DNA from: an uncultured Alphaproteobacteria bacterium | GTDB lineage: Bacteria > Pseudomonadota > Alphaproteobacteria > HIMB59 > GCA-002718135 | DNA length: 64,000 bases | Direction of reading: 5' to 3' | Assembly (NCBI GenBank): GCA_902607435.1 | Contig: CACLJX010000001.1 | Span: forward strand, 10,899-74,898 | Shown: positions 14,182 through 34,194 of the stretch, piece by piece | Layout of the letters: each line of letters starts with the position of its first letter | Numbering within the stretch: the stretch's first letter is position 1 | Program-made: the position numbers and the translations under genes | The notes under the pieces: generated by a model | The model's database searches: none | What the model saw: the letters and a program-made list of their open reading frames with translations, nothing else | Told to the model about the DNA's origin: nothing

Positions 14182-14607
14182 CTAAATTGATTTTTCATCA
14201 TAATAATGAGCATACTTTTTTATTTGTTGAATCATTGCATAAACCCCATTTCTTCTGCCCGGAGTTAAAAGGACGTCAAGTTCTAATTTTTTAAGTGATT
14301 CGAAATTTGAAGCTAGAATATCAGCAGGTTTATTTTTCCCGTAAATATCAGTTAAAATTGTCACCATACCTTTTGATATAAAAGCATCTGAGTCACTATA
14401 AAAATTTAATATGCAATCTTTAAATTCTGGGACTAACCATACTTGTGCTTGGCATCCTTCAACTTTAAAACTTTCTTTACGATATTCTTCAGGAAATAAA
14501 ATAGCTTTTTTTCCTTGATCAAGAAGAAACTTATATTTGTCCATTGTTTCTTCAAAAGAATCAAGGCTATTTTTATAAAAATTAATTTTTTCTTCAATTT
14601 TTATCAT
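14182..14607 (-). CDS. sufE: cysteine desulfuration (sulfur acceptor) protein SufE
   Basis: VEGCQAQVWL matches the SufE active-site Cys region. 141 aa. Confidence 0.85.
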   Translation of the reverse strand: MIKIEEKINFYKNSLDSFEETMDKYKFLLDQGKKAILFPEEYRKESFKVEGCQAQVWLVPEFKDCILNFYSDSDAFISKGMVTILTDIYGKNKPADILASNFESLKKLELDVLLTPGRRNGVYAMIQQIKKYAHYYDEKSI

Positions 14608-15656
14608 TGTATATGTTTTCTTAAAATAAGAGCAGTTTCTTCAGGTAATACATCCATAATAAATACACCTGCCATTGTTTCAGAACCAGCAAGTATTTTT
14701 GGTTTATCACCAGATCGCAGGGGAGGATAAAATTCAACATGAAAATGAAACTTATCGTCTTCTAAATTTGGCGCAGCATGAAGTCCCATTATATATGGAC
14801 ATTTCTTATTCAAAAAAGAATCATATCCTTTTACAACTTTTTGTAAACAAATTGAGAAAGATCTAATTTGATCTTCATTGAATTGCCAAGGTCCTGCAAC
14901 TTTTGTTTTGGGTATAATCCAGATTTCATAAGCGTATCTTGCAAAAGGTGGAATGGCGGCAATTATATTGTCATCTTGATACACATAATATTTTTTTTCA
15001 AGATCATGCATTAAGGCATTTAAATAATTTTTTTTTTGGAAAGCCATAATTTCTTTTTTAATTACAGGGGGAATAAATGAATATCCATATATTTGCCCAT
15101 GAGGATGATGCAGAGTTACCCCACATTCTTTGCCTCTATTTTCAAAAGGTAATACATATTTAATATTATCATTTGTTAATAATTCTCTATATCTATCATT
15201 CCAAGTGTGAACGAGTAGTTCTATTTGTTCTAATGGCATATCAGCAACAGTATCTTCATGGTTTGCTGAATAAACAATAATTTCACAATGTCCATTAGAA
15301 GGCTTAGTTTTTAAACCATCAAATTTGGTAATATTTTCATTATGAGTACAAAAACTTGACCATCTATTTGGAAATACTGCAACTTCAAAATTTTTAAATG
15401 GAATTTCTGTTGGAAAATTTAAATCATTACTTGGACAAAAAGGGCAATATTCTTTAGGCGGAAAAGTAGTTCTTTTTTCTCTTCCAGCTGAATATGTAAT
15501 CCATTCTTGACGAAGAGGATGCCATCGCATGTGAGGAGGTAGAATATTTGTTATTTCAATTTCTTGCATATTTTTTTCCTCATGTTTTACAGTACTAAAT
15601 AATAGAAGATCCTTGCTATCATTTCTTTTAAAAATTCTTTTAAAATATTTTTTCAT
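14604..15656 (-). CDS. galT: galactose-1-phosphate uridylyltransferase
   Basis: CPFCP zinc site and the HPHGQIY active-site HPH motif. The true start may be the internal Met at 15569. Confidence 0.88.
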   Translation of the reverse strand: MKKYFKRIFKRNDSKDLLLFSTVKHEEKNMQEIEITNILPPHMRWHPLRQEWITYSAGREKRTTFPPKEYCPFCPSNDLNFPTEIPFKNFEVAVFPNRWSSFCTHNENITKFDGLKTKPSNGHCEIIVYSANHEDTVADMPLEQIELLVHTWNDRYRELLTNDNIKYVLPFENRGKECGVTLHHPHGQIYGYSFIPPVIKKEIMAFQKKNYLNALMHDLEKKYYVYQDDNIIAAIPPFARYAYEIWIIPKTKVAGPWQFNEDQIRSFSICLQKVVKGYDSFLNKKCPYIMGLHAAPNLEDDKFHFHVEFYPPLRSGDKPKILAGSETMAGVFIMDVLPEETALILRKHIQ

Positions 15657-16629
15657 TTTTTAATTTTCGTTCCCATTGAATCGCTGTTTTTAATATAAAA
15701 TTTAAATTATTATATTTAGGCGTCCAATCAATTATTTGTTTTAACTTAGTGATATCAGAAATTAATTTAATGGAATCTCCAGGACGTCTTGGACCATATT
15801 CAATGTTGATTCTATTGTTACATATCTTGTTAATTTCATCTAGAATTTCTTTAACTGAATATCCCTTACCATACCCACAATTTAATATCTTTGATTGTTT
15901 CTTTTTTAACAAATATTCAAGTGCTTTAACATGTATTTCAGCTAGATCAGAAACGTGAATATAATCTCGTATAGCTGTTCCATCTAAAGTATTATAGTCT
16001 TTTCCAAAAATAATTACTTTATCTCTTTTTCCAATAGCAGCTTCACTAGAAACTTTGATTAAATGTGTGGGGTTTTTTGAAATTAAACCACTTCTCATTT
16101 GAGGATCTGAACCAGCAACATTAAAATAACGTAAAATTATATATTTTAATCTATTTTTAGAAAGATTAATCAAATTTTTTTCTGTTTCAATTTTTGATTC
16201 TGCGTATGGATTAAGAGGATTTAATTTTGTATTTTCATCAATTAATCCATTTAAGATAGGATTACCATAAACAGCTGCTGTTGATGAAAAAATAACGTTA
16301 ATTAATCCATTTTTAAAACATGTATCAAATAATATTTCAGAATTTTTTGTATTATTAATAAAATATTTTTTAGAGAACTGTAAAGATTCTTCTACCTTAA
16401 TAAAAGCAGCAAAATGCATCACAGCAATAAATTTTTTTTTTTGAAGAATAGATGAAATGATTTCAACGTCATTTATATTGCATTTTACAAAATCCGCTTT
16501 TTTGGGTATTAATTGCTCATGCCCGGTGCTCAAATCATCGAGTATTGTAACATTATATCCTGCATCCAATAAACTCAATGAGACATGGCTTCCTATGTAG
16601 CCAGCTCCACCAGTAACTAATATATTCAT
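15640..16629 (-). CDS. galE: UDP-glucose 4-epimerase
   Basis: MNILVTGGAGYIGSH and the short-chain dehydrogenase (SDR) motif YAESK (YxxxK). 329 aa. Confidence 0.9.
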   Translation of the reverse strand: MNILVTGGAGYIGSHVSLSLLDAGYNVTILDDLSTGHEQLIPKKADFVKCNINDVEIISSILQKKKFIAVMHFAAFIKVEESLQFSKKYFINNTKNSEILFDTCFKNGLINVIFSSTAAVYGNPILNGLIDENTKLNPLNPYAESKIETEKNLINLSKNRLKYIILRYFNVAGSDPQMRSGLISKNPTHLIKVSSEAAIGKRDKVIIFGKDYNTLDGTAIRDYIHVSDLAEIHVKALEYLLKKKQSKILNCGYGKGYSVKEILDEINKICNNRINIEYGPRRPGDSIKLISDITKLKQIIDWTPKYNNLNFILKTAIQWERKLKNEKIF

Positions 16630-16686: not shown

Positions 16687-17529
16687 ATGAAATTACTTAG
16701 ATATAGAAAAAATGGCTTAATTGAGCCGGGCATTTTAGATGTTGAAGGCAATATAAGAAATGCATCTTCACTAACAAAAGATTGGTCAAACAAGACATTA
16801 AATCTTGAAAATATTAATAAATTGAGTGCAGCTAATATATCTGCTTTACCAAAAGTTGACGATATAATCTCTATTGCTCCTTGTATAGGAGGAGTTGGAA
16901 AATTTATTTGTATAGGATTGAATTATTCAGATCATGCTGCTGAAACTGGAATGGAAGTACCAAAAGAACCTATAATATTTATGAAAGCAACAAGTTCCAT
17001 CTGTGGACCTAATGATGATATAATTATACCAAAAAACTCAAACAAAACAGATTGGGAGGTTGAACTTGGTGTTATTATAGGAAAAGAAGCAAAATATATT
17101 TCAGAGCAAGATTCACAAGATTACATTGCTGGCTACTGTGTTGTGAATGATCTTAGTGAACGTGAATTTCAATTAGAACATTTAGGACAATGGGTCAAAG
17201 GAAAATCATGTGATACTTTTGGTCCAATCGGACCATATTTGGTTACAAAAGATGAAGTTCTGGATCCTCAAAATTTAGAATTATATTTAGAAGTAAATAG
17301 TCACATTATGCAAAAAGGATCTACATCTAAAATGATATATGGTGTTAATTTTTTAATTAGCTACTTAAGTCAATTTATGTCTTTACAACCTGGAGATATA
17401 GTTTCGACAGGGACACCCCCAGGTGTTGGGATGGGGAAAAAGCCATCAATTTATCTAAAAGCTGGTGATAAAATTAAATTAGGCATACAAGGTTTGGGTG
17501 AACAAAATCAAAATGTGATTTCATTATAA
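16687..17529 (+). CDS. fumarylacetoacetate hydrolase (FAH)-family hydrolase/isomerase
   Basis: GLNYSDHAAE, DWEVELGVIIGK, GTPPGVG are FAH-family motifs. 280 aa. Confidence 0.85.
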   Translation: MKLLRYRKNGLIEPGILDVEGNIRNASSLTKDWSNKTLNLENINKLSAANISALPKVDDIISIAPCIGGVGKFICIGLNYSDHAAETGMEVPKEPIIFMKATSSICGPNDDIIIPKNSNKTDWEVELGVIIGKEAKYISEQDSQDYIAGYCVVNDLSEREFQLEHLGQWVKGKSCDTFGPIGPYLVTKDEVLDPQNLELYLEVNSHIMQKGSTSKMIYGVNFLISYLSQFMSLQPGDIVSTGTPPGVGMGKKPSIYLKAGDKIKLGIQGLGEQNQNVISL

Positions 17530-18683
17530 TGTTTGGTAATATTAACAATTGCCATAATACAAAAGATTTTAGAAGGCTTGCTAAACGAAAACTACCTAGT
17601 CCTATTTTTCACTATATAGATGGAGCCGCAGATGATGAAGTGACCTATCGGCGAAATACAGAAGCATATGAACAATGTGATTTAATACCTAATGTTTTAG
17701 CTGGTGTTGAAAATATAGACATGTCAACAACAGTGATGGGTAAAAAAATTGATATGCCTCTTTATTTAGCTCCAACTGCATTGCAACGATTGTTTCATTA
17801 TGATGGTGAAAAAGCAGTTGGTAAAGCTGCAGAAAAATTTGGTACAATGTTCGGTATTTCTTCACTTGCTACAGCAAGTATTGAAGAAATTTCTGATTTA
17901 ATTAAAACACCAAAACTTTTTCAACTTTATGTTCACAAAGACAAGGGATTAAACAAAAGCATGATTGATAGATGCAAAAATTCTAACTTTGATGCTCTTG
18001 CTTTAACAGTTGATACTATAGTAGGAGGAAATCGAGAAAGAGATTTATATACTGGATTTACATCTCCTCCTAGATTAACTTTAAAAAGTTTATTTAGTTT
18101 TGCTATGCATCCTAATTGGGCTTTTAATTATTTCACTCATCCACGATTTGAGCTTAGCCAATTAAAAGATTTTTTTGGAGAAGGTACAAATATATCTGTG
18201 TCTGTAAGTGATTATTTTACTAAGTTAATTGATCAATCAATGGATTGGAAAGCAGCAGAGGAAATTAATAAACATTGGGGCAAACAATTTGCTTTAAAAG
18301 GTATAATGTCAGTAGCAGATGCTAAAAAAGCAGTAGATATTGGAGCTACAGCAATTATGGTTTCAAATCATGGAGGAAGGCAACTAGATGGATCTCGCTC
18401 TCCATTTGATCAATTGTCAGAAATTGTTGATGCGGTTGGGGATAAAATTGATGTTATTTGTGAAGGAGGAATTCGAAGAGGGACCCATGTTTTAAAAGCT
18501 TTATCTTTAGGTGCAAAAGCTTGTTCTGGAGGAAGATTTTATTTGTATGCTCTTGCAGCTGGAGGACAAAAAGGCGTTGAAAAAGCTTTATTAAATTTAC
18601 AAACAGAAATAAAAAGAGATATGCAGCTGATGGGAGTTACAAAAGTGGATCAACTATCTCGTACAAATATAAAATTCAGATAA
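17529..18683 (+). CDS. FMN-dependent alpha-hydroxy acid (L-lactate-type) dehydrogenase
   Basis: PIFHYIDGAADDE, VSNHGGRQLD, GGIRRG. TAATG overlap with the upstream FAH gene. Confidence 0.88.
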   Translation: MFGNINNCHNTKDFRRLAKRKLPSPIFHYIDGAADDEVTYRRNTEAYEQCDLIPNVLAGVENIDMSTTVMGKKIDMPLYLAPTALQRLFHYDGEKAVGKAAEKFGTMFGISSLATASIEEISDLIKTPKLFQLYVHKDKGLNKSMIDRCKNSNFDALALTVDTIVGGNRERDLYTGFTSPPRLTLKSLFSFAMHPNWAFNYFTHPRFELSQLKDFFGEGTNISVSVSDYFTKLIDQSMDWKAAEEINKHWGKQFALKGIMSVADAKKAVDIGATAIMVSNHGGRQLDGSRSPFDQLSEIVDAVGDKIDVICEGGIRRGTHVLKALSLGAKACSGGRFYLYALAAGGQKGVEKALLNLQTEIKRDMQLMGVTKVDQLSRTNIKFR

Positions 18684-18745
18684 ATTTTAAAAAAAATACA
18701 AAAAAAACATTTATTCTCTTAAAAATTTATTCTAAGATTTTTTAT

Positions 18746-19072
18746 ATGAATAAAGAAAAAGAATATGAATCTATTCATATTGGCCAATCAGAAGATCTCG
18801 ATAAAGACAGTGTAGAAAATTTTGAATATGAAGAAATTGATTACGCTATTTATCATTTAGAGAGTGGGTTCTTTGCAACTCAAGGTCATTGTCATTGTGA
18901 AGAACAAGCTTTGTTGAGTGAAGGCACAATTGAGGGAGAAGAATTAGAATGTGCAAGTTGTGGACGAACGTTCAGTATAGTATCCGGAGATCCTATTAGT
19001 GATCCAGGAATGAAACCATTAAAAATTTACGAAGTTACTGAAGAGAATGGTAGCTTGTTTTTAAATATTTAA
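18746..19072 (+). CDS. Rieske-fold ferredoxin-like mini-protein with non-canonical CxC...CxxC ligands
   Basis: 108 aa. ...GHCHCEEQALLSEGTIEGEELECASCGRTF... aligns to the small oxygenase ferredoxin pattern CxH..LSEG..ECPxHG, with Cys in place of both His. Confidence 0.6.
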   Translation: MNKEKEYESIHIGQSEDLDKDSVENFEYEEIDYAIYHLESGFFATQGHCHCEEQALLSEGTIEGEELECASCGRTFSIVSGDPISDPGMKPLKIYEVTEENGSLFLNI

Positions 19073-20038
19073 ATTTATATTTTTTCTATTAATAATATTA
19101 TTAACATTAATTTTTGATTTATTATTTAAGTAATTAGAAATGTTTTCACATGCCTCTACAGCCATTCTTTTTCTACATTCAAGTGGAAGTGCAGCACTGT
19201 GAGGAGATAGCACTATGTTATCTAATTTAAATAAAGGATTGTCGTTACTAGGTGGTTCTTTTTCATAAACATCAATTCCAGCCCCATAAATTTCCTTATT
19301 GTTCAAAGCCCAAAATAAATTTTGTTCATTTACTATCCCCCCCCTTGCAGTGTTTACTAGGATACACGTATTTTTCATCATCAATAATTGTTCTTTGGAG
19401 ATCATATTTTTAGTATTTTTATTAAGAGGCAAATGTATGCTAACAAAATCAGCAATTTTCAAACCTTCTTCCAAATTTATAGGAAAACAATTATCCTTTT
19501 TAATAATTGAAGCATCAATAAAAGGATCATACACATATACTTTAGAATCAAAGCCAAGGCATCGTTTAGCCAGTGTTTTGCCAATTCTTCCAAAGCCAAG
19601 AATTAAAACATTTTTTTCATATAATTCAAAAAAATCTGGCAATAAATTTTTTTCTTTATATTTTCCATTTCTAACAAGTTGATCAGATTGTTTGGTTATT
19701 TTGCATATACTCAAAAACATCATCATTACATGTTCAGCTACACTTATAGCGTTAGAAGTTCCTGTTATTGCAAGGGCTATTTGATGATTATTGAGATAAT
19801 TCAAATCAACATTGTCATATCCAACACCGTGACGAGAAACTATTTTTAAATTATTACAATTTTTGAGAATATCACTTGTTAATTTTGGTGTTCGAAGAAC
19901 AATGCCATCAACGTTATGCAATTTATTAATTAAATTATCTGATGAAAAATCTTTGATTTCAAAAACATCACACCCTTTTTTTTCTAAAATAGACCATCCA
20001 TCAGCATGAATTGAACCTATCATTGCAATTTTACTCAT
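19061..20038 (-). CDS. D-isomer-specific 2-hydroxyacid dehydrogenase (NAD-binding)
   Basis: SRHGVGYDNVD, GFGRIGKTLAKR, NTARGG..., SPH. 325 aa. Confidence 0.85.
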   Translation of the reverse strand: MSKIAMIGSIHADGWSILEKKGCDVFEIKDFSSDNLINKLHNVDGIVLRTPKLTSDILKNCNNLKIVSRHGVGYDNVDLNYLNNHQIALAITGTSNAISVAEHVMMMFLSICKITKQSDQLVRNGKYKEKNLLPDFFELYEKNVLILGFGRIGKTLAKRCLGFDSKVYVYDPFIDASIIKKDNCFPINLEEGLKIADFVSIHLPLNKNTKNMISKEQLLMMKNTCILVNTARGGIVNEQNLFWALNNKEIYGAGIDVYEKEPPSNDNPLFKLDNIVLSPHSAALPLECRKRMAVEACENISNYLNNKSKINVNNIINRKNINLNI

Positions 20039-20044: not shown

Positions 20045-21055
20045 CTAACTATAATTAATTTTAACTGTTTTTTTATTTTCAAAAGAATCATAAGCAGCAT
20101 TGGCAATAATTAGAGCCTTTCTTCCATCTTCGAAATTAACTGTAGTAGGTTTTTTATTATTTATGCAATTCACAAAATTTTCAAGCTGATTTTTGTATGC
20201 TATTTCATATCTTTCAATAAAGAAATTAAGTATATGATCTTTTGAACTAGTGTTTCCATTACTATAAGAAGTAACTGATGTGGGTGTTTGATTATTTGAG
20301 ATTAACATTCCTTTATTGCCAAATAATTCAACTCTTTGATCATAACCATAAGAAGCATGTCTTGAATTATTGATATGACATAATACTCCTGATTCTGATT
20401 TCATGATAATCATAGCAGTATCAATATCATTTGCCTCTTTAGCCTCTGCGCTAAATAGTCTATCCCCAGTTGCATATATTTCAACTATAGGATCATTTTG
20501 AAGAATAAAGCATGCCAAATCAAAATCATGTATTGTCATATCTCTAAACATCCCTCCAGATACTTTTAAATATGCAGCAGTGGGTCCGCTTGGATCCCTA
20601 CTTGTTATTATGATCTGTTCTAATTTACCTATTTCACCTTTATTTTTTCTTTCATTTGCTGAGAGATGACTCGGGTCAAATCTTCTATTAAAGCCAATAT
20701 GTATAGGAATATTATATTTCTCTAATTCTTTTTTACATTTGTTCACTCTATTAATATCTAGGTCAATTGGTTTTTCACAAAAAATTGCCTTTCCTGCTTT
20801 TGCAGCTGACAGTATGTATTTTGTATGGGTTGGTGTTGATGTACAAATATAAACAATATCTACACTGGGATTAGAAATTGCCTCTTTAGGAGATAAAGCT
20901 ACTGTACCACCATATAAACTTGTAATCTTATTGGCAGCATTACTATCTATATCATAAACACATTCAATACTACATTTTGGATTTAGAGCTATGTTTGCAG
21001 CATGTATTTTTCCTATTCGACCCACTCCTAACAAAGCAAATTTAAGTATTTTCAT
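20045..21055 (-). CDS. iolG: myo-inositol 2-dehydrogenase (Gfo/Idh/MocA family)
   Basis: LGVGRIGKIHA, CEKP, GFNRRFDP, GGMFRDMTIHDFD, as in alphaproteobacterial IdhA/IolG. Confidence 0.85.
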   Translation of the reverse strand: MKILKFALLGVGRIGKIHAANIALNPKCSIECVYDIDSNAANKITSLYGGTVALSPKEAISNPSVDIVYICTSTPTHTKYILSAAKAGKAIFCEKPIDLDINRVNKCKKELEKYNIPIHIGFNRRFDPSHLSANERKNKGEIGKLEQIIITSRDPSGPTAAYLKVSGGMFRDMTIHDFDLACFILQNDPIVEIYATGDRLFSAEAKEANDIDTAMIIMKSESGVLCHINNSRHASYGYDQRVELFGNKGMLISNNQTPTSVTSYSNGNTSSKDHILNFFIERYEIAYKNQLENFVNCINNKKPTTVNFEDGRKALIIANAAYDSFENKKTVKINYS

Positions 21056-21199
21056 GCTATTTTCTTTTTATACGTTTCTATAATTTGGATATATATTATT
21101 ATTCATAACCACTAAACCATTTTACAGAAAAAAAAATATTATAGTAAATGTTTGGATTAAAAATAATATGAATTATAAGATATTAAAGAATTTAAAAAA

Positions 21200-23044
21200 A
21201 TGAAAACACTTCGATTAGCCTGCTCCCACGCATTAATTAAATATATAGTTGCGCAAAAAATAATAATTGACGGTAAAAAAATGCCATTATTTGCAGGTGC
21301 TTTTGGAATATATGGCCATGGCAATGTTGCTTGTATTGGGCAAGCAATGGAAGAGTTTCAAGATCAATTACCTGGTTATAGGGGGCATCATGAACAAAAC
21401 ATGGCACTTACTGGTATTGGTTATGCTAGGGCCATGAGACGAAAACAAATTTTTATTGCAACATCTTCAGTAGGTCCAGGTTCAACAAACATGGTTACAG
21501 CTGCAGCGGTAGCTTTAAGCAATAGACTTCCCATATTATTATTACCAGGAGACACATTTGCAAGCCGGTTTCCTGATCCTGTACTTCAGCAAGTAGAAAA
21601 TTTTCATAGCCCGACTTCAACACAAAATGATTCTCTCAAAGCAGTATCAAAGTATTTTGATAGAATAACTAGGCCAGAACAAATTTTATCCTCCTTACCT
21701 CAAGCACTACAAATGATGCTTGATCAAGCTGATTGTGGTCCGGCTACAATATCAATGTCACAGGATGTACAGGGGGAAGCATTTGATTATCCAGAAGTTT
21801 TCTTTGAAGAACAAATTCATGAAATTAGAAGAATTTATCCCGATCAAAATCAGATTAAAAATGCAACAGAGATAATTAAAAATTCCCAACAACCTATTAT
21901 TATTTCTGGAGGCGGTGTTTTGTATTCAGAAGCAGAAAAAGAACTTTCTGAATTTGCAAAAAAACACCATATACCAGTTACTTCTACAGTGATGGGTATT
22001 GGTTGTATGGATAAAGAAGATCCATATTACATTGGGCCAATTGGTTGTCTTGGAGTTGGTTCTGCAAATGTTTTGTCTAAGAAAACTGATTTGGCTTTAG
22101 CTGTAGGAACTAAACTAGGCGATTTTACTACTGGGTCATGGACGAATTTTCATAATCCTGATTTTAAATTGGTTTCTATTAATGCCGCACGCTTTGATGT
22201 AACTAAACACAGAGCAACTCCGGTTGTGTCTGACGCCAAGATAGGATTATTGGAATTATCAAAAGTCCTTGGAGATTGGAAAGCACCAGATCATTGGTAT
22301 CAACAAGCTGTTAAAGAAACTAAAGCATGGGATCAATATGTTGAAAAACAAAGTGGTCCTACTAATCAAGAAATACCTTCATATGCTCATGCTGTGGGGG
22401 CTGTTTATCGAAATGCTGATCCAACAGATATTGTTGTGACTGCAGCAGGAGGTCTTGTTGGTGAAGTTGCTCAAGTGTGGAAACCAAAACAAATCAATAC
22501 CTTTGAAACAGACTGGGGATATAGCTGCATGGGATATGAAATATCTGGAGCCCTTGGGATAAAAATGGCCAAACCTAATCAAGAAGTAATAGTTTTTGTT
22601 GGTGATGGTTCTTACTTATTAAATAATAGTGATATTTACAGTTCGATACTTTATGAAAAAAAATTGATCATTGTTGTATGTGACAATAGTGGTCATATGG
22701 TTATTAACCGCCTCCAATTAGCTAAAGGTGGTAAGGAATATTTATGTAATTTAAAAACTTCAAGAGCTACAAATTTTATTGAAGTTGACTTTGCTGCCCA
22801 TGCTGCAAGCATGGGTGCTGAAACTGAGGCTATAACTTCAACTTCGGAATTAGAAGCAGCTTTTTTGAGAGCTAAAAAATCAAATAAAACTTATGTGATA
22901 GCACTTAAAACTCATGGCTATGAATGGTTAGAGGGAACTGCATTTTGGGAAAGTCCTACTTTAGAAGTTTCATCTACTGACAATAATAAAAAAGCATATC
23001 AAGAGCATAAAGAAGGAAAAGAAAAACAAAGAAAAGGAGTTTAA
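21200..23044 (+). CDS. iolD: 3D-(3,5/4)-trihydroxycyclohexane-1,2-dione acylhydrolase (ThDP-dependent)
   Basis: 614 aa ThDP enzyme: GIYGHGNV, SSVGPGSTN, GDGSYLLNNSD. Size and N-terminus are typical of IolD. Confidence 0.88.
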   Translation: MKTLRLACSHALIKYIVAQKIIIDGKKMPLFAGAFGIYGHGNVACIGQAMEEFQDQLPGYRGHHEQNMALTGIGYARAMRRKQIFIATSSVGPGSTNMVTAAAVALSNRLPILLLPGDTFASRFPDPVLQQVENFHSPTSTQNDSLKAVSKYFDRITRPEQILSSLPQALQMMLDQADCGPATISMSQDVQGEAFDYPEVFFEEQIHEIRRIYPDQNQIKNATEIIKNSQQPIIISGGGVLYSEAEKELSEFAKKHHIPVTSTVMGIGCMDKEDPYYIGPIGCLGVGSANVLSKKTDLALAVGTKLGDFTTGSWTNFHNPDFKLVSINAARFDVTKHRATPVVSDAKIGLLELSKVLGDWKAPDHWYQQAVKETKAWDQYVEKQSGPTNQEIPSYAHAVGAVYRNADPTDIVVTAAGGLVGEVAQVWKPKQINTFETDWGYSCMGYEISGALGIKMAKPNQEVIVFVGDGSYLLNNSDIYSSILYEKKLIIVVCDNSGHMVINRLQLAKGGKEYLCNLKTSRATNFIEVDFAAHAASMGAETEAITSTSELEAAFLRAKKSNKTYVIALKTHGYEWLEGTAFWESPTLEVSSTDNNKKAYQEHKEGKEKQRKGV

Positions 23045-23063
23045 TTACTCCATTAATTATTAT

Positions 23064-23510
23064 TTACCACACAGACCCATCAGGTTTGATCACACCCTTA
23101 TTTAAAATAAAACACCCATAAGCTCTTGCATCAGTTGTAGATACAATAACGAAAGCTTCTTTGGCTTCTTTATAAAACTGCATTCTTTCAATGGTGCCGA
23201 TTTTCCATTTATCGCCTGAAGTATTTTTTACAACATCAATAAAATCTTTATGTACGTCGTTTATTTCATGAGGATTGTTATCAATTTCCATTCTTTTGAC
23301 TGGACAGTCAACAAAACTATCAAGTGGAAATACAGATAAGATTGCTTTGGCGGCGTTAGGAATATCAATACCATCCAATCTAACTAATCTTTTTGCTAGT
23401 GATGATGAAGGAAAATTTGCATCAGCTAAAACTAGTGTATCGCCATGTCCCATTGAGCGTAAGGCACTTAACAATTTGGGACTTAAAATTGGATCAATAT
23501 CAATTAACAT
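23064..23510 (-). CDS. RbsD/FucU-family sugar mutarotase/transport-associated protein
   Basis: SMGHGDTLVLADANFP is the family signature. 148 aa. Confidence 0.8.
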   Translation of the reverse strand: MLIDIDPILSPKLLSALRSMGHGDTLVLADANFPSSSLAKRLVRLDGIDIPNAAKAILSVFPLDSFVDCPVKRMEIDNNPHEINDVHKDFIDVVKNTSGDKWKIGTIERMQFYKEAKEAFVIVSTTDARAYGCFILNKGVIKPDGSVW

Positions 23511-23621
23511 TTATAAAACCATATAATTATAAATAAATTATTCAATATTAATTATATCCTTATTAATAACTTAGACAAAATCTATTGAAATCAATTAGTT
23601 TTTTCCTTAATTGTACCATGC

Positions 23622-24377
23622 ATGATTTCCAATCCACCTGATATCATTCTTGAAGCCAAAGGTATCTCAAAATATTTCGGAACAATAACAGCACTTGAAA
23701 GTGCAAATCTTAGTCTTAGGCCTGGAGAAGTGTTAGGTGTTGTTGGAGATAACGGTGCTGGAAAATCTACTCTAATGAAAGTCTTATCTGGTTTATTTAA
23801 ACAAAGCGCAGGATCAATATTTTTTGAAGGCAAAAAAGTAGAGTTCTCTAGTCCTCGAGATTCCCAAAATTTAGGCATAGAAATGGTTTATCAAGATCTT
23901 GCTTTGGCTGAAAACTTACCAATAGGCGATAATATTTTTTTGGGAAGAGAGCCTACAAGAAAGTTTGGACCATTTAAATTTCTTGATCATAAACAAAAAA
24001 GACAGCTGACTGAAGAACATCTTTCTAGGTTAAAAATAAATGTTAAAAGTGCTGATCAAAGAGTAGAAGAACTTTCCGGCGGTCAGCGTCAAGCGGTTGC
24101 AATTGCTAGGGCAACAGCTTTTGATGCAAAAATAGTTATTATGGATGAACCTACAGCCGCTCTTGCAGTAAAAGAAGTTGGCAAAGTTTTAGATTTAATT
24201 AAGGGTCTAAAAAATTTAGGGGTTGGTGTAATTGTAATTAGTCACCGTATGGATGATATATTTACCGTATCAGACCGTGTCATGGCTTTATTTCAAGGAA
24301 CAAATTTTGCTGAGTCACACTTAAGAGAAACTTCTCGAGATGAAGTTATTGGATGGATAATGGGCAAAAAAATATAA
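23622..24377 (+). CDS. sugar ABC transporter ATP-binding protein (single ABC domain)
   Basis: Walker A GDNGAGKST, signature LSGGQRQ, Walker B IVIMDEPT. 251 aa. Confidence 0.9.
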   Translation: MISNPPDIILEAKGISKYFGTITALESANLSLRPGEVLGVVGDNGAGKSTLMKVLSGLFKQSAGSIFFEGKKVEFSSPRDSQNLGIEMVYQDLALAENLPIGDNIFLGREPTRKFGPFKFLDHKQKRQLTEEHLSRLKINVKSADQRVEELSGGQRQAVAIARATAFDAKIVIMDEPTAALAVKEVGKVLDLIKGLKNLGVGVIVISHRMDDIFTVSDRVMALFQGTNFAESHLRETSRDEVIGWIMGKKI

Positions 24378-24381
24378 GTAT

Positions 24382-25389
24382 ATGGAACAAAAAGACGATA
24401 CTCTTTTTATTAAATTAATCCCCTACATTGATAAGTATGGGATACTTCTTTTGATTGCAATAATGTTACTTGTCTTACATCTTCTGCAACCTGATGTATT
24501 TTTTTCATGGCGCAATATAACTAACATATTTAAACAAATATCGTGGCAGTCTATGCTAGCCCTTGGTGTGTTCATGGTCATTGTTACAGCAGGCATAGAT
24601 TTATCTGTCGGATCAATACTCATGTTGTCTTTAATGGCGCTTGCAATTTCATCAAGAGCCGGACTTCCTTGGCAAATTGTAGTTCTCGTTGCACCTGCAG
24701 TAGGATTGGTATGCGGAATGATTAATGGATTAGGAATAACCATTCTTCGAATGCCCCATCCATTTATTATGACTCTTGGGACACTTTATATATTTAGAGG
24801 TGTTGGAAACTTGATTTCAGGTGGTGTTCCAATAGGTGGATTTGCAAATCAAATTAGATCCATAGGAAATGGAAAAATAAAATTAGAGTGGCTTTACGGA
24901 GAGGGTGCGGCACAATACATTCCTTCAAGTCTAATTATTATAATTATTATATATGTTATTTTTTGGATTTTTTTAAATCAAACTAAAATTGGAAAATGGA
25001 TTTATGCGATTGGTGGTAATCCTGGAGCTGCACGAGCAGCTGGGATTAACGTTAATAGAATTTTAGTTCTTGTATATACCTTATGTGGTTTTTTAGCAGG
25101 TATTGGAGCACTAATTCTTGCAGGCAGAACTGGTTCAGCATACCCTAATGCTGGCTTGCAATCAGAACTGGATGCAATTGCTGCTGTCATTATTGGAGGA
25201 GCAAGTTTTTTCGGAGGTCGAGGAACCGTATTAGGTGTTTTTGCAGGAGTATTCATAATGGGATTACTCAGAAATGGCTTAAATTTGATGAATGTTAGTG
25301 TTTTTTGGCAACAAGTTTTAATAGGATCAATTATTATTTTGGCTGTTTATATAGATGTTTTACGTAGGCAATTTGGTACCAGGAAATAA
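24382..25389 (+). CDS. sugar ABC transporter permease (ribose/CUT2-like)
   Basis: Multi-pass membrane protein. TAGIDLSVGS and GGASFFGGRGTV motifs are typical of RbsC-like permeases. Confidence 0.88.
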   Translation: MEQKDDTLFIKLIPYIDKYGILLLIAIMLLVLHLLQPDVFFSWRNITNIFKQISWQSMLALGVFMVIVTAGIDLSVGSILMLSLMALAISSRAGLPWQIVVLVAPAVGLVCGMINGLGITILRMPHPFIMTLGTLYIFRGVGNLISGGVPIGGFANQIRSIGNGKIKLEWLYGEGAAQYIPSSLIIIIIIYVIFWIFLNQTKIGKWIYAIGGNPGAARAAGINVNRILVLVYTLCGFLAGIGALILAGRTGSAYPNAGLQSELDAIAAVIIGGASFFGGRGTVLGVFAGVFIMGLLRNGLNLMNVSVFWQQVLIGSIIILAVYIDVLRRQFGTRK

Positions 25390-25457
25390 CAATAGATTAA
25401 GTTGAATTATTTTCTTTTTTAATTACCATTATTAAATAATTTTTTTAGGAGGAAAAT

Positions 25458-26360: not shown

Positions 26361-26385
26361 ATTAATTTAACTTAAATAAAATTAT

Positions 26386-26414
26386 TAAAAAGGCAGGTAA
26401 AACTGCCTTTTTTC
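26386..26414 (+). terminator. intrinsic terminator/attenuator after binding-protein gene 1
   Basis: AAAAAGGCAG-GTAAAA-CTGCCTTTTTTC: 6-bp GC-rich stem (26391..26396 / 26403..26408) extendable by A:T pairs, followed by a T-run. Confidence 0.7.
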
Positions 26415-26476
26415 TTGTTAAAGTTTATAAAAATAGTAGTTATTAATTTAATACTTTTAATAGGGAGGAAGATTTT

Positions 26477-27412: not shown

Positions 27413-27431
27413 TTCTACTTAATCAATTTTT

Positions 27432-27467
27432 TGACCCCGCAGTAAAAATATATTGCGGGGTCATTTT
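27432..27467 (+). terminator. intrinsic terminator/attenuator after binding-protein gene 2
   Basis: Perfect 10-bp stem TGACCCCGCA (27432..27441) / TGCGGGGTCA (27454..27463), 12-nt loop, then TTTT. It ends 11 nt before the next ATG. Confidence 0.8.
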
Positions 27468-27478
27468 CAAAAACTAAA

Positions 27479-28264: not shown

Positions 28265-28286
28265 TTCATTCTGCAATTATTCTATA

Positions 28287-29306: not shown

Positions 29307-29350
29307 TTAATAAAATTAATTAATTTTGTAATGACCATTCCTAAAAAAAT

Positions 29351-30346
29351 ATGAAAGTTAATTTAAATAAATGGTATTTATGTGATTTAGATAAAGAAAG
29401 ATATGTTCAACTTAAAGAAAAGTCTGATTGGGCAGGTTTTCAACATGTAGGTTTATTCTTTATTAGTTTATTTTTTTTTGGTTATCTTTCTTATTTTTTT
29501 TGGGGAACATGGTTGGGGATAATATTTTTATTAATATATGGAAATATTTATTCTTGTAGCAATCCTATTTGGCATGAAACAGGTCATAGAACTGCTTTTA
29601 AAACAGATTTATATAATAAGATTTTTTATCAAATAGGAAGTTTCATGACAAATTTTGATCCTACAAGATGGCGATGGAGTCATTTTAACCATCATAGTCA
29701 TACACTATTTACAAAAGATCCGTATGATTTTGAAATTGAAATTAGAAAACCTACAGACCTTCTTTTTTTTGCAAGCAGAATCATACCTTGCGGTAGATTT
29801 TTATATATTCATAAATTGCCTCATTTGGAAACTTTACAACATGCTTTAGGTATTACAACTCATGTTATGAAAGATTGTATTCCAAAAAAACAGCAAAATA
29901 AATGCAGGTTAATTGCTCGTATTCATGTTTTAATTTGGATTTTAATCTTTACAGTTGCGATCATTTATCAATCCTGGCTCCCTATAATATATATTATACT
30001 GCCTACATTTTACGGTAACACTCTTTTTGAATTATTTGGTTTAACACAACACGCTGGATTATCAAATAATATTAAAGATCATCGTATTAGTACAAGAACA
30101 GTTATTTTAAATCCTATATTTAGTTTTTTATATTGGCATATGGAGTATCATATTGAGCATCACATGTTTCCTATGATACCATCATATAATTTAAAAAAAT
30201 TACATCACTTAATTAAAGACGATCTTCCTATTCCAAAAAAAAATTTATGGAATGCATACAAAGAAATTATTCCTGCTGTTATTAAACAAACGAAAGATCC
30301 CAATTATAAAATAAATGTAATTCTTCCTGCGCCTAAAATAAATTAA
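29351..30346 (+). CDS. membrane di-iron fatty-acid-desaturase-family oxygenase (MocD / rhizopine-oxygenase-like)
   Basis: Three His boxes: HETGH, HFNHH, HIEHH. The C-terminal HIEHHMFPMIPSYNL resembles the MocD-like subgroup as I recall it. N-terminal TM hairpins. Confidence 0.7.
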   Translation: MKVNLNKWYLCDLDKERYVQLKEKSDWAGFQHVGLFFISLFFFGYLSYFFWGTWLGIIFLLIYGNIYSCSNPIWHETGHRTAFKTDLYNKIFYQIGSFMTNFDPTRWRWSHFNHHSHTLFTKDPYDFEIEIRKPTDLLFFASRIIPCGRFLYIHKLPHLETLQHALGITTHVMKDCIPKKQQNKCRLIARIHVLIWILIFTVAIIYQSWLPIIYIILPTFYGNTLFELFGLTQHAGLSNNIKDHRISTRTVILNPIFSFLYWHMEYHIEHHMFPMIPSYNLKKLHHLIKDDLPIPKKNLWNAYKEIIPAVIKQTKDPNYKINVILPAPKIN

Positions 30347-30357
30347 ATTTAAAATTT

Positions 30358-31179
30358 TTAATTAATAGAGCAAGTTTTTTTTAAATAATTTATACTTTTA
30401 ATTATTTTGTTTGATGGATTTTTCATATTCTGAATTTTTTTTGCAAAAGGTTCAAAGGAAAATACTCCTTCATATCCTTTTTTAATTAAGTTTTTTAATT
30501 GATCAACATTCTTCAAAACATCATTTTCATCAATTAATACTCTATGTTTATCAAGCATTTCTGAGGTTTTTAATTTATTATTAGATACTCCAGAAATATG
30601 AACCAAACCTGTTTGTTTAGGAAATATCTTATTTTCTCCTGCTAGGTAATGATGAAAAGTATCATGTAAGATTTTTAAAGTATTTTTTGGCGAAATTTGA
30701 TCTATAGCTTCTGCTACTTCACTTTTAAAACGAAGTGATGATGTTTTAAAGCCTAATGGTTCGACATAACCCATTAAACTATAATTATTTAAAATTGACT
30801 TAATTTTTTTTAGAGAATTATATAATAATTTTTGGCGTTCTTTATGGTTTATAAATTTACCATTATTTAAAGGGACAAGTACAATTCCTTTGCAATTACA
30901 TTTTTTTGCAAATTCACATAGAAATATAAGTTCTTTCCTCCTTTTATCATTCCATAGATTGAATTTTTGTAATGCATTAATGGAGAGTATCTTAATTTTT
31001 AATTCTTTGGATAATTCTTTTATCATATTTGGTTCCATAGCCTTAAGAGAAACATTAGGTAAATCATTTCGTATTTCAATATTTTGAATATTCATATTAT
31101 TTGATAATGCAAAAAAATCTTTTAATATTAAATTTGGTGACAATATGTGATTTAAAGCAAAATGATTATTTATACTCAT
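30358..31179 (-). CDS. xylose-isomerase-like TIM-barrel protein (IolI / MocC-like sugar isomerase/epimerase)
   Basis: 273 aa. The pattern of conserved E/H/D (YVEPLG, HDTFHH, HISG, FEPF) is typical of AP-endonuclease-2/xylose-isomerase-like TIM barrels. Confidence 0.65.
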   Translation of the reverse strand: MSINNHFALNHILSPNLILKDFFALSNNMNIQNIEIRNDLPNVSLKAMEPNMIKELSKELKIKILSINALQKFNLWNDKRRKELIFLCEFAKKCNCKGIVLVPLNNGKFINHKERQKLLYNSLKKIKSILNNYSLMGYVEPLGFKTSSLRFKSEVAEAIDQISPKNTLKILHDTFHHYLAGENKIFPKQTGLVHISGVSNNKLKTSEMLDKHRVLIDENDVLKNVDQLKNLIKKGYEGVFSFEPFAKKIQNMKNPSNKIIKSINYLKKTCSIN

Positions 31180-31296
31180 TTTTTTACCATATAATTATTA
31201 ATTTTTATTTCAACATATAATATTGTAAGGTAATTTGATGAGAAAAATTTTCAAACATTTAAAAACTTCTTTATAATAAAATAATTTTTTTATATT

Positions 31297-33698: not shown

Positions 33699-33699
33699 A

Positions 33700-34125: not shown

Positions 34126-34194
34126 AAGCTTTAATATCCTTTTACAAAAATTATCATTTTTAATTTAAAATTAATAGTTATAAATTTACTTAAT

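What the first reader, a model, noticed from the sequence alone, without database searches (positions are those of the whole stretch)
18746..19072. Rieske-fold mini-protein in which both histidine ligands appear replaced by cysteine (CxC...CxxC)
**Seen in sequence**
- The 108-aa ORF reads ...ATQGHCHCEEQALLSEGTIEGEELECASCGRTFSIVSGDP...PLKIYEV...
- I re-translated the DNA directly (ggt cat tgt cat tgt ... tgt gca agt tgt gga) and it agrees with the supplied track.
- Spacing and flanking residues (LSEG, a Gly-rich turn, EC..., then a P..P..Y.V ending) follow my recollection of the small oxygenase-coupled Rieske ferredoxins (CxH-x(n)-LSEG-...-ECPxHG).
- The ligand boxes here read C-H-C and C-A-S-C, which gives four Cys. 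Two extra His in HCHC leave some ambiguity.

**Inference**
- An all-Cys cluster on a Rieske fold would be expected to have a much lower, pH-independent potential than a 2His/2Cys cluster. The site could instead bind a mononuclear metal.
- The gene lies 62 nt downstream of an FMN-dependent alpha-hydroxy acid dehydrogenase, and no ferredoxin reductase is in the window.
- One speculative wiring has the flavoenzyme reducing this protein, which then feeds the desaturase-like oxygenase at 29.3 kb.
Basis: partly seen in the sequence, partly recalled or inferred. Interest (0 to 1): 0.6.

Follow-up and report, generated by a model that had tools for sequence, protein, structure and literature searches.

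The report
All-cysteine Rieske-fold protein in SAR11
A small protein of abundant marine SAR11-type bacteria has the fold of a Rieske iron-sulfur ferredoxin, but both metal-binding histidines are replaced by strictly conserved cysteines; no such natural variant turned up in the literature searched, and it sits at the end of a deoxy-sugar/L-lactate operon.

Summary
ORF 18746-19072(+) encodes a 108-aa acidic protein. It passes Pfam's Rieske threshold, and its model (pLDDT 92) superposes on oxygenase-coupled Rieske ferredoxins (TM 0.85, rmsd 1.6 A). Alignments put C49-x-C51 on the CxH box and C69-x-x-C72 on the CxxH box.

The four Cys are kept at fixed spacing in 119/120 metagenomic homologues and 81/81 genomic copies (SAR11/Pelagibacterales, HIMB59-type). 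Median dN/dS is about 0.12. The two His in HCHC vary, so they are not ligands.

The best canonical relatives by profile score are MocE-type ferredoxins, encoded next to or fused with MocD-like FA_desaturase oxygenases. In the window the MocE slot beside MocD (29351-30346) is empty.

The gene is the last one of a conserved operon, [dehydratase]-SDR-FAA hydrolase-FMN L-lactate dehydrogenase-R, found in about 75 of 77 evaluable loci. This is the 6-deoxyhexose route that yields pyruvate and L-lactate.

My best reading is a Cys4 redox carrier for the flavoenzyme, possibly feeding MocD. The metal (mononuclear Fe, Zn or all-Cys 2Fe-2S) and the partner are not established. The engineered equivalent (ARF H44C/H64C) assembled a cluster poorly.

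Verdict: a new variant of a known kind, of moderate to high interest.

The parts
18746..19072 (+). Gene for the 108-aa Rieske-fold, four-cysteine protein ('R4C'); pI 4.2, 25 D/E against 6 K/R
   Evidence: ORF; Pfam Rieske above the gathering score; AF2 pLDDT 92; Foldseek TM 0.85 to CarAc and NDO ferredoxin; dN/dS 0.12
18890..18898 (+). Ligand box 1, C49-H50-C51 (tgt cat tgt), in place of the Rieske C-x-H box
   Evidence: Alignments to BphA3 and CarAc; C49 and C51 invariant in 81/81 genomic copies with both TGT and TGC in use; the middle residue varies
18950..18961 (+). Ligand box 2, C69-A-S-C72 followed by Gly, in place of the Rieske C-P-x-H-G box. In 36 of 80 genomic copies it reads C-P-[ST]-C-G, a rubredoxin-like knuckle
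   Evidence: alignments; box variants counted; invariance
18684..18745 (+). 62-nt AT-rich spacer between FMN_dh and R4C, with no promoter-like or terminator-like match
   Evidence: Sequence; scan; a spacer of about 53-79 nt is conserved in related loci
17529..18683 (+). FMN-dependent alpha-hydroxy-acid dehydrogenase, L-lactate-dehydrogenase-like; its start overlaps the FAH stop
   Evidence: PF01070 429 bits; NCBIfam L-lactate dehydrogenase PRK11197 298 bits, below the 376 cut-off; directly upstream of R4C in about 75 of 77 evaluable loci
16687..17529 (+). FAA-hydrolase family enzyme, closest to 2,4-didehydro-3-deoxy-L-rhamnonate hydrolase (products pyruvate + L-lactate); first gene of the window's operon
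   Evidence: PF01557; NF053535 380 bits, E 6e-114, below the 500 cut-off; upstream of R4C in every locus with enough flank
19061..20038 (-). Convergent D-2-hydroxyacid dehydrogenase family gene; its 3' end overlaps the R4C 3' end by 12 nt
   Evidence: PF02826/PF00389; conserved downstream in most loci
29351..30346 (+). MocD-like membrane di-iron oxygenase (FA_desaturase family) with His boxes HETGH, HFNHH and HMEYHIEHH; candidate downstream partner
   Evidence: PF00487; His boxes and hydrophobic segments
30347..30357 (.). 11-nt gap between MocD and the convergent AP_endonuc_2 gene: the position where relatives outside SAR11 carry a canonical MocE Rieske ferredoxin is empty here
   Evidence: for the gap; L088, L089 and L091 show FA_desaturase -> Rieske -> AP_endonuc_2(-)
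30358..31179 (-). AP_endonuc_2 (IolE/MocC-like TIM-barrel) gene, convergent on MocD
   Evidence: PF01261
23064..23510 (-). L-fucose mutarotase-like gene (RbsD/FucU); supports 6-deoxyhexose use in this island
   Evidence: PF05025; NCBIfam L-fucose mutarotase 91 bits, below the 141 cut-off

Best explanation
R4C is a small, acidic, cytoplasmic metal-binding protein with the fold of an oxygenase-coupled Rieske ferredoxin. The two Cys and two His that normally hold a [2Fe-2S] cluster have become four strictly conserved Cys (C-x-C-x17-C-x-x-C).

It most likely descends from the MocE-type ferredoxins that feed MocD-like di-iron oxygenases. In SAR11 and HIMB59-type bacteria it has moved to the 3' end of the 6-deoxyhexose operon: [acid-sugar dehydratase]-SDR-diketo-acid hydrolase-FMN L-lactate dehydrogenase-R4C.

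Proposed mechanism (inferred, not shown):
1. The hydrolase releases pyruvate and L-lactate.
2. The FMN enzyme oxidises L-lactate.
3. R4C takes the electrons one at a time from the reduced flavin, as the heme domain does in flavocytochrome b2.
4. R4C passes them on to the membrane MocD-like oxygenase where one is present, or otherwise toward the respiratory chain.

An acceptor reducible by lactate (E0' about -190 mV) needs a fairly high potential. [quoted passage not shown]

Shown: the fold, the ligand replacement, its conservation, the operon position and the MocE-like affinity. Inferred: redox activity, metal identity, and both electron-transfer steps.
For: - Fold and ligands.
- Conservation: four Cys in 119/120 homologues and 81/81 genomic copies, with synonymous TGT/TGC turnover and dN/dS 0.12.
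- Operon: FAH -> FMN_dh -> R4C on one strand, 53-79 nt apart, in about 75 of 77 evaluable loci. No promoter-like or terminator-like match in the gap.
- Pathway: Pfam-annotated contigs show rhaM, MR_MLE, SDR, FAA_hydrolase, FMN_dh and R4C. FAH is closest to 2,4-didehydro-3-deoxy-L-rhamnonate hydrolase, and FMN_dh is closest to L-lactate dehydrogenase. lldD belongs to rhamnose regulons in other bacteria (PMC3870299).
- Unmet need: the FMN enzyme is the only operon member that needs an external, non-pyridine electron acceptor (established knowledge of the FMN_dh family).
- Ancestry: the eight best canonical hits to the 4-Cys profile are all MocD-linked. Near relatives include FA_desaturase-Rieske and FA_desaturase-Rieske-FNR fusions.
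- Empty slot: the window's MocD has intact His boxes but no adjacent ferredoxin, and the window holds no reductase.
- Mononuclear option: the Rieske scaffold can host a rubredoxin-like Fe(Cys)4 site, whereas the exact CxC..CxxC double mutant of ARF assembled [2Fe-2S] poorly (PMC2946596). CXC+CXXC forms a mononuclear Cys4 site in Hsp33. Box 2 often reads CPxCG.
Against: - L001 and L115/L116 keep an intact 4-Cys gene directly after FAH with no FMN_dh. The protein therefore does not strictly depend on the flavoenzyme.
- MocD lies within 10 kb of R4C in only about six loci. L095 has MocD but no R4C at the syntenic place.
- Bacterial LldD-type enzymes normally reduce quinone directly and need no carrier (own knowledge).
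- The rubredoxin-like site engineered on ARF used CxxC..CxxC, not CxC..CxxC.
- There are no metal, redox or expression data. Structure prediction returns no model coordinates, so the S-S geometry could not be measured.
- MocE ancestry rests on a small margin in profile score (57-70 against 56 bits or less), and the distance tree was unresolved.
Confidence: 0.4

Rival explanations
1. R4C is a relocated MocE: a low-potential all-Cys [2Fe-2S] ferredoxin. Its real partner is the MocD-like oxygenase, which would O-demethylate or hydroxylate inositol or sugar derivatives. An unlinked NAD(P)H-dependent reductase reduces it. Its place behind the FMN enzyme is only co-regulation within a carbohydrate island.
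For: - The best canonical relatives are MocD-adjacent or MocD-fused ferredoxins.
- The MocE slot next to the window's MocD is empty, and R4C is the only ferredoxin-like gene in the window.
- Loci without FMN_dh (L115/L116) still have R4C, with MocD 8.6 kb downstream.
- Box spacing and the Pro-rich third loop of Rieske ferredoxins are retained, and the cluster loops are modelled at pLDDT of about 95 in Rieske geometry.
- A single His->Cys change (H64C) in ARF still gave a low-potential [2Fe-2S] cluster.
- Rieske His bind through N-delta-1, so their reach is close to that of Cys (own knowledge).
Against: - The exact double substitution in ARF largely abolished cluster assembly.
- MocD is not seen within 10 kb in most R4C loci, and many marine MocD loci have no R4C nearby.
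- No reductase is linked.
- The tight, near-universal position after FMN_dh would be left unexplained.
Confidence: 0.25
2. R4C is a Zn(Cys)4 protein with no redox role. The former cluster site has become a structural zinc-ribbon-like knuckle. The protein acts as an accessory or small subunit of an operon enzyme (FMN_dh or the FAH hydrolase), as cluster-less NirD does for NirB.
For: - Rieske-fold proteins without a cluster exist and act as subunits: NirD structures are among the fold hits.
- A second family of small Rieske-like proteins with degenerate ligand boxes sits in catabolic operons.
- CXC+CXXC is a proven Zn(Cys)4 motif in Hsp33.
- There are weak zinc-ribbon profile echoes on residues 50-85 (LysW, Trm112p, RPAB4; E 0.03-0.1).
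- The ARF double mutant did not take a cluster, and the rubredoxin-like triple mutant bound Fe or Zn.
- R4C stays next to FAH even where FMN_dh is absent.
- Replacing an Fe-S cluster with Zn would save iron in an iron-poor ocean (inference).
Against: - A purely structural site would not obviously require all four ligands to sit exactly at the ancestral cluster positions.
- The very acidic surface is typical of electron carriers, although this is not specific.
- The zinc-ribbon profile hits are all below threshold.
- The FMN enzyme's unmet need for an electron acceptor would remain unexplained.
Confidence: 0.25
3. R4C is a thiol/zinc redox switch of the Hsp33 kind. Oxidation of the CxC and CxxC pairs would release the metal and change the activity of an operon enzyme.
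For: The motif is identical to the Hsp33 switch. If the FMN enzyme acts as an oxidase, it could produce H2O2 (own knowledge of the family).
Against: There is no fold relationship to the Hsp33 C-terminal domain, since the model is a compact Rieske fold. There is no regulatory domain and no evidence of any kind. SAR11 genomes are streamlined and poor in regulators (own knowledge).
Confidence: 0.05

Closest known systems
MocE-type Rieske ferredoxins of the MocD/MocE/MocF 'ferredoxin oxygenase complex' (rhizopine catabolism; TIGR02377)
   Same: - About 105-110 aa, single domain, the same fold.
- Highest profile similarity among canonical proteins (57-70 bits).
- Also found in inositol/sugar catabolic islands together with a MocD-like FA_desaturase oxygenase and an AP_endonuc_2 gene.
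   Different: - Ligands are CxC..CxxC rather than CxH..CxxH.
- It scores 37 bits against a TIGR02377 cut-off of 136.
- It is not adjacent to MocD, being 10.3 kb away in the window.
- It is embedded in an FAH-FMN_dh operon.
- No MocF-type reductase is nearby.
Oxygenase-coupled Rieske ferredoxins with solved structures (CarAc 1VCK/2DE5, BphA3 2E4P, BphF 1FQT, NDO ferredoxin 2QPZ, TDO ferredoxin 3DQY)
   Same: - Fold match at TM 0.85 and rmsd 1.5-1.7 A over about 100 residues.
- The LSEG motif, box spacing, the Gly after box 2 and the Pro-rich loop are all retained.
   Different: - Both His ligands are Cys.
- Sequence identity is only 22-28%.
- The genomic partner is not a Rieske non-heme-iron oxygenase and not a Pyr_redox_2 reductase.
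Engineered Sulfolobus solfataricus ARF variants (Kounosu 2004; Iwasaki 2005; reviewed in PMC2946596)
   Same: ARF H44C/H64C has exactly the CxC..CxxC ligand pattern on a Rieske-type ferredoxin scaffold. ARF H44I/K45C/H64C shows that this scaffold can hold a rubredoxin-like Fe(Cys)4 site.
   Different: - Those are laboratory mutants. The double mutant assembled a cluster poorly, and the working mononuclear design used CxxC..CxxC.
- R4C is a natural family under purifying selection, with hundreds of members.
NirD / Rieske_2 (PF13806) small subunits of assimilatory nitrite reductase
   Same: A small single-domain Rieske fold that has departed from the 2His/2Cys ligand set. NirD structures are among the fold hits (3C0D, 2JO6, 4AIV).
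   Different: - NirD has lost its ligands, whereas R4C keeps four invariant Cys.
- Rieske_2 scores 16.2 bits against a cut-off of 27, and TIGR02378 scores 37.7 against 74.65.
- There is no nirB in the window.
Rubredoxin, the electron donor to AlkB (a membrane di-iron oxygenase of the FA_desaturase superfamily)
   Same: Possible functional analogy: a small acidic Cys4 iron protein serving a FA_desaturase-family oxygenase. Box 2 often reads C-P-x-C-G, like a rubredoxin knuckle.
   Different: - The fold is different and there is no Pfam rubredoxin match.
- Box 1 is CxC rather than CxxC.
- Iron binding has not been shown.
Flavocytochrome b2 (FMN_dh domain fused to a heme b5-like acceptor domain)
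   Same: Functional analogy for the proposed first step: an FMN-dependent L-lactate dehydrogenase handing single electrons to a dedicated small carrier (own knowledge).
   Different: - The carrier here would be a separate Cys4 Rieske-fold protein, not a fused heme domain.
- The transfer is entirely inferred from operon structure.

Membership tests
Rieske [2Fe-2S] domain proteins (Pfam PF00355) / Rieske-type ferredoxins | Sequence profile match above the curated threshold | tested here: met
   PF00355 scores 31.5 bits against a gathering score of 20.3, E 1.7e-7, covering profile positions 4-88 of 88
Rieske [2Fe-2S] domain proteins (Pfam PF00355) / Rieske-type ferredoxins | Rieske fold: a beta-sandwich with a cluster-binding subdomain | tested here: met
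   AF2 pLDDT 92, pTM 0.81; Foldseek TM 0.85 and rmsd 1.6 A to 2DE5_D, 2QPZ and 1FQT
Rieske [2Fe-2S] domain proteins (Pfam PF00355) / Rieske-type ferredoxins | Ligand motifs C-x-H ... C-x-x-H (2 Cys + 2 His) | tested here: not met
   C-H-C ... C-A-S-C. Both His positions are Cys in the alignments. This holds in 119/120 homologues and 81/81 genomic copies
Rieske [2Fe-2S] domain proteins (Pfam PF00355) / Rieske-type ferredoxins | Binds a [2Fe-2S] cluster with Rieske-type EPR (g_av about 1.91) and a pH-dependent potential | not testable with these tools
   Needs purified protein. The engineered ARF H44C/H64C analogue assembled a cluster poorly
MocE family 2Fe-2S ferredoxin (TIGR02377) | Score above the NCBIfam subfamily cut-off | tested here: not met
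   37.1 bits against a cut-off of 136.15
MocE family 2Fe-2S ferredoxin (TIGR02377) | Encoded next to, or fused with, a MocD-like FA_desaturase oxygenase | tested here: not met
   The window's MocD is 10.3 kb away and its adjacent slot is empty. MocD lies within 10 kb in only about six R4C loci. Canonical relatives are adjacent or fused
MocE family 2Fe-2S ferredoxin (TIGR02377) | Closest sequence affinity among Rieske ferredoxins | tested here: inconclusive
   The top eight canonical hits by profile score are MocD-linked (57-70 bits, against 56 or less for the others), but the NJ tree is unresolved. Control proteins P0174 and P0161 are not MocD-linked
NirD / Rieske_2 (PF13806, TIGR02378) | Profile score above threshold, and partnership with NirB | tested here: not met
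   PF13806 scores 16.2 against 27. TIGR02378 scores 37.7 against 74.65. No nitrite reductase gene is in the window
Rubredoxin (Fe(Cys)4) | Two CxxC(G) knuckles on the rubredoxin fold | tested here: not met
   Only box 2 is CxxCG-like; box 1 is CxC. There is no rubredoxin Pfam hit, and the fold is Rieske
Rubredoxin (Fe(Cys)4) | Mononuclear, redox-active iron bound by four Cys | not testable with these tools
   Needs spectroscopy. One search shows only that the scaffold is compatible with such a site
Hsp33-type Zn(Cys)4 redox switch | CXC + CXXC cysteine pattern | tested here: met
   The pattern is C-x-C-x17-C-x-x-C. The Hsp33 motif is described. This is a match in pattern only
Hsp33-type Zn(Cys)4 redox switch | Hsp33 domain architecture and fold | tested here: not met
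   No Hsp33 family hit. The model is a single Rieske domain

The most novel reading that the evidence does not exclude
R4C is a natural rubredoxin-type mononuclear Fe(Cys)4 centre built on a Rieske scaffold. It wires an FMN-dependent L-lactate dehydrogenase directly to a membrane MocD-like di-iron oxygenase. In the ocean's most abundant heterotrophs, sugar-derived lactate, not NAD(P)H plus a ferredoxin reductase, would then pay for oxidative O-demethylation or hydroxylation of inositol or sugar derivatives. The change would also halve the carrier's iron cost and remove its need for Fe-S assembly.
Probability: 0.12. Interest if true: 0.8.

Novelty: new variant of a known kind. Interest (0 to 1): 0.62.

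Why it matters
The 2His/2Cys ligand set is the defining feature of Rieske proteins, and it sets their high, pH-dependent potential. Laboratory attempts to replace both His by Cys on this scaffold largely failed to assemble a cluster.

A large natural family under purifying selection with exactly that substitution therefore points one of two ways. Either evolution found how to hold an all-Cys cluster on a Rieske fold, or the fold was repurposed for a mononuclear Fe or Zn site. Either answer bears on how Fe-S scaffolds, rubredoxins and zinc ribbons interconvert.

The family belongs to SAR11 and HIMB59-type bacteria, which are globally abundant and iron-limited. It sits in an operon for 6-deoxyhexose (rhamnose/fucose) and L-lactate use, a part of marine carbon turnover that is still being mapped. 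It also offers a candidate for the missing electron donor of the orphan MocD-like oxygenases that are common in these genomes.

The protein is small and soluble, so the question can be settled quickly at the bench.

Tried and rejected
1. **His48/His50 as alternative ligands (a CxH reading).** Rejected: both positions vary freely.
2. **A broader, conserved clade of 4-Cys Rieske proteins.** P0158, P0172 and P0247 have CxC..CxxC, but their relatives P0271-P0280 have degenerate boxes and sit next to an esterase and an ABC transporter. The four Cys there are sporadic, and that family says nothing about this one.
3. **NirD identity.** Rejected on scores and on the lack of a nirB context.
4. **A spurious ORF.** Rejected: dN/dS 0.12, 612 homologues and conserved synteny.
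5. **A phylogeny to prove MocE ancestry.** The NJ tree on BLOSUM distances was saturated (all distances about 0.71-0.75) and gave a meaningless single-sequence sister. Only the profile-score ranking plus gene context could be used.
6. **What follows FMN_dh orthologues outside SAR11.** The word-indexed search returned only orthologues of 86% identity or more, so this led nowhere.
7. **AFDB fold search for UniProt names.** The library was unavailable.
8. **Cys S-S distances in the model, to separate mononuclear from binuclear sites.** Not possible, because the tool returns no coordinates.
9. **AF2 'linker-fusion' complex of FMN_dh with R4C.** Not attempted. The input rules would probably refuse a chimera, and the output gives no interface information.
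10. **Literature searches for a natural all-Cys Rieske protein.** Nothing found. The library omits much subscription literature.
Full report
**1. Observation**

The ligand codons read tgt-cat-tgt (18890-18898: C49-H50-C51) and tgt-gca-agt-tgt (18950-18961: C69-A-S-C72). The upstream gene ends at 18683, which gives the stated 62-nt gap.

**2. It is a Rieske-fold protein**

- Pfam's Rieske model matches nearly end to end (profile positions 4-88 of 88) at 31.5 bits, above the gathering score of 20.3. Rieske_2/NirD stays below threshold at 16.2 against 27.
- NCBIfam gives only sub-threshold hits of similar strength to HcaC, NirD, MocE and AndAb ferredoxins, at 37-42 bits.
- phmmer against the PDB finds the oxygenase-coupled Rieske ferredoxins: CarAc at 1e-9, BphA3 at 1.6e-7, NDO ferredoxin at 2.7e-6.
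- An AlphaFold2 model was built from an alignment of family members only, without templates. It is confident (pLDDT 92, pTM 0.81, and about 95 across both ligand loops).
- The model superposes on CarAc, NDO ferredoxin, BphF and TDO ferredoxin at TM 0.82-0.87 and rmsd 1.5-1.8 A. NirD structures rank lower.

**3. Both His ligands are Cys, and this is conserved**

- The gapless BphA3 alignment places C-H-C on C-T-H and E-C-A-S-C-G on E-C-S-L-H-M. The CarAc alignment agrees for box 2.
- Of the 120 best of 612 homologues, 119 have C-x-C-x17-C-x-x-C.
- In 80 genome loci all 80 copies have it, at identical spacing.
- A codon-level analysis of 81 genes shows the four Cys invariant while TGT and TGC alternate at each site. 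Median dN/dS is 0.116 with saturated dS.
Both vary (H/N/R/Q/S/I and N/P/H/Y/T/S/V and others), so neither can be a ligand.
- Box 2 reads E-C-P-[ST]-C-G in 36 of the 80 genomic copies, which is the rubredoxin-type knuckle.
- The protein is very acidic: pI 4.2, with 25 D/E against 6 K/R.

**4. Who has it**

All 80 genome loci come from Pelagibacterales/SAR11 or HIMB59/'MarineAlpha5'-type single-cell genomes and MAGs. The window itself has 29.8% GC. In a search of 1.84 billion 50%-identity representatives, the family occupies only a handful of clusters. After them come ordinary CxH..CxxH ferredoxins.

**5. Where it came from**

Ranked by score against the 4-Cys profile, the eight best canonical proteins are all linked to MocD-like FA_desaturase oxygenases.
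- P0146, P0151 and P0153 lie directly downstream of a 331-aa FA_desaturase gene and upstream of a convergent AP_endonuc_2 gene.
- Five low-GC marine Rieske genes lie beside MocD paralogues.
- Multi-domain near relatives are natural fusions. P0154, P0159, P0171 and P0220 are FA_desaturase-Rieske. P0202 is FA_desaturase-Rieske-FNR. P0189 is Rieske-FNR.
- Two canonical controls that are equally close by raw distance (P0174, P0161) are not MocD-linked.

This matches the MocD/MocE/MocF 'ferredoxin oxygenase complex' of rhizopine catabolism, which is encoded as one transcription unit.

In the window, the MocD-like gene (29351-30346) has intact His boxes and hydrophobic segments. It is followed after only 11 nt by the convergent AP_endonuc_2 gene, so the MocE position is empty.

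The ancestry claim has limits. The score margin is small (57-70 bits against 56 or less) and a distance tree was unresolved. I therefore treat MocE descent as the best-supported origin, not as proven.

**6. Where it lives now**

tblastn of the window's proteins against the 80 loci shows FAH -> FMN_dh -> R4C on one strand, with a 53-79-nt spacer, in essentially every locus that has enough flank. A convergent 2-hydroxyacid dehydrogenase and iolD lie downstream.

Pfam-annotated contigs carrying a 74%-identical homologue show the wider unit: rhaM, a GFO-type dehydrogenase, IclR, then CoA-transferase, MR_MLE dehydratase, SDR, FAA_hydrolase, FMN_dh and R4C.

Counts over 84 loci:
- MR_MLE>SDR>FAH>FMN_dh>R: 41
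- SDR>FAH>FMN_dh>R: 33
- The window lacks the SDR.
- L001 and L115/L116 lack FMN_dh, so FAH is followed directly by R.

NCBIfam places the FAH closest to 2,4-didehydro-3-deoxy-L-rhamnonate hydrolase (380 bits, below the 500 cut-off). It places the FMN enzyme closest to L-lactate dehydrogenase (298 bits against 376). A FucU-like mutarotase lies at 23064-23510.

This is the non-phosphorylative 'diketo-hydrolase' route for L-rhamnose/L-fucose, which ends in pyruvate plus L-lactate, extended by an L-lactate dehydrogenase. lldD genes are known members of rhamnose regulons in other bacteria.

No promoter-like or terminator-like match lies in the 62-nt gap. No ferredoxin reductase or other ferredoxin was found in the window (five ORFs of 100 aa or more at 55.8-63.2 kb were not scanned).

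**7. Mechanism**

What is shown:
- R4C is a conserved Cys4 site at the ancestral cluster position of a Rieske ferredoxin fold.
- It is very probably co-transcribed with an FMN L-lactate dehydrogenase.
- Its genomes carry MocD oxygenases that lack their usual ferredoxin.

What is inferred:
- FMN-dependent alpha-hydroxy-acid dehydrogenases need an external acceptor: O2, quinone, or a heme domain as in flavocytochrome b2. This is established knowledge of the family.
- R4C is the only non-enzyme gene in the operon. I therefore propose that it accepts single electrons from the reduced flavin.
- It would deliver them to MocD where present, or otherwise toward respiration.

Thermodynamics then bear on the metal (typical values, from my own knowledge):
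- The lactate/pyruvate couple, at about -190 mV, cannot usefully reduce a typical all-Cys [2Fe-2S] ferredoxin at about -250 to -420 mV.
- It can reduce a rubredoxin-like Fe(Cys)4 centre at about -50 to +50 mV.

The engineering record points the same way. In S. solfataricus ARF, H64C alone gave a low-potential 3Cys/1His cluster. The H44C/H64C double mutant, which has the same pattern as R4C, 'largely impaired the cluster assembly'. A Cys4 triple mutant gave a rubredoxin-like mononuclear site. CXC+CXXC is also a proven mononuclear Cys4 motif, the Zn site of Hsp33.

Points against this reading:
- The working ARF design was CxxC..CxxC, not CxC..CxxC.
- Rieske His bind through N-delta-1 and so have a Cys-like reach. 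A natural family could therefore have adapted to hold an all-Cys cluster.
- R4C persists in three loci without FMN_dh.
- MocD is seen within 10 kb in only about six loci, and it occurs without R4C at a syntenic site in L095.

My estimates are: redox carrier for the FMN enzyme, with mononuclear Fe favoured, 0.40; all-Cys [2Fe-2S] MocE replacement, 0.25; structural Zn or NirD-like accessory protein, 0.25; thiol switch, 0.05.

**8. Comparison and novelty**

R4C passes the sequence and fold criteria of the Rieske domain family but fails its defining ligand motif. It fails the MocE, NirD and rubredoxin membership tests. It is best described as a Rieske-fold Cys4 protein derived from MocE-type ferredoxins.

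Three literature searches found no description of a natural all-Cys Rieske variant. The closest precedent is the engineered ARF mutants. The library lacks much subscription literature, so prior description cannot be excluded.

A second small family contains sporadic 4-Cys members, but it does not conserve them.

I rate the finding a new variant of a known kind.

Noticed in passing
window 29351-31179: The MocD-like FA_desaturase oxygenase (intact His boxes) and a convergent AP_endonuc_2 gene are only 11 nt apart. In relatives outside SAR11 a canonical MocE Rieske ferredoxin sits between them. MocD here has no adjacent electron donor and no reductase anywhere in the window.
   Followed up: yes
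L122, L123, L155 (also L124, L128, L130, L138, L150): Low-GC (28-31%) marine contigs carry two or three MocD paralogues clustered with one canonical CxH..CxxH Rieske gene. Genomes of SAR11-like composition therefore hold both the canonical and the 4-Cys types.
   Followed up: partly
L001:1247-2493; L115/L116:184-1428: A lineage close to the window (R4C 74-79% identical) has FAH followed directly by R4C with no FMN_dh gene. It is either a clean loss of FMN_dh or the state before the gene was inserted.
   Followed up: partly
proteins P0202, P0189, P0245: Unusual natural fusions among near relatives: a 760-aa FA_desaturase-Rieske-FNR protein (a complete MocD-E-F system in one chain), a Rieske-FNR protein, and a SufBD-core-Rieske protein.
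   Followed up: no
L081-L086; proteins P0271-P0280, P0158, P0172, P0247: A separate family of about 107-aa Rieske-like proteins has degenerate ligand boxes, with a few members reading CxC..CxxC. It is conserved between an esterase (Abhydrolase_3/COesterase) and an SBP_bac_1 ABC transporter. Function unknown.
   Followed up: partly
window 16687-19072 against about 75 related loci: The window's operon lacks the SDR (and the MR_MLE dehydratase) that precede FAH in nearly all other loci. Here GalE (15640-16629, minus strand) directly abuts FAH.
   Followed up: partly
window 14182-16629: SufE (Fe-S sulfur-transfer protein), GalT and GalE form a block on the minus strand that is conserved 3-5 kb upstream of R4C in about 35 loci. 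In L095 and L099 the same block abuts MocD instead.
   Followed up: partly
window 17529-18683 against 18746-19072: The FMN_dh has many homologues at 92-96% identity, whereas the best R4C homologue is 86% identical. The mini-protein evolves markedly faster than its neighbour.
   Followed up: no
window 20045-37661: A large inositol/sugar island: iolG (above the NCBIfam cut-off), iolD (above the cut-off), FucU-like, two tandem sugar ABC systems with two binding proteins, a GFO-family dehydrogenase, a Gig2-like protein (PF07350), glyoxalase, PfkB kinase, IolB/KduI, a class-II aldolase and an HpcH/HpaI aldolase.
   Followed up: partly
protein P0282: The 90%-identity cluster of the 106-aa homologue P0078 also contains a 251-aa Tara protein labelled COG1721. 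It may be a fusion, a read-through or a clustering artefact.
   Followed up: no
window 9578-10132: A stand-alone HNH endonuclease ORF (PF01844/PF14279) lies among housekeeping genes next to COQ7 and DsbB.
   Followed up: no
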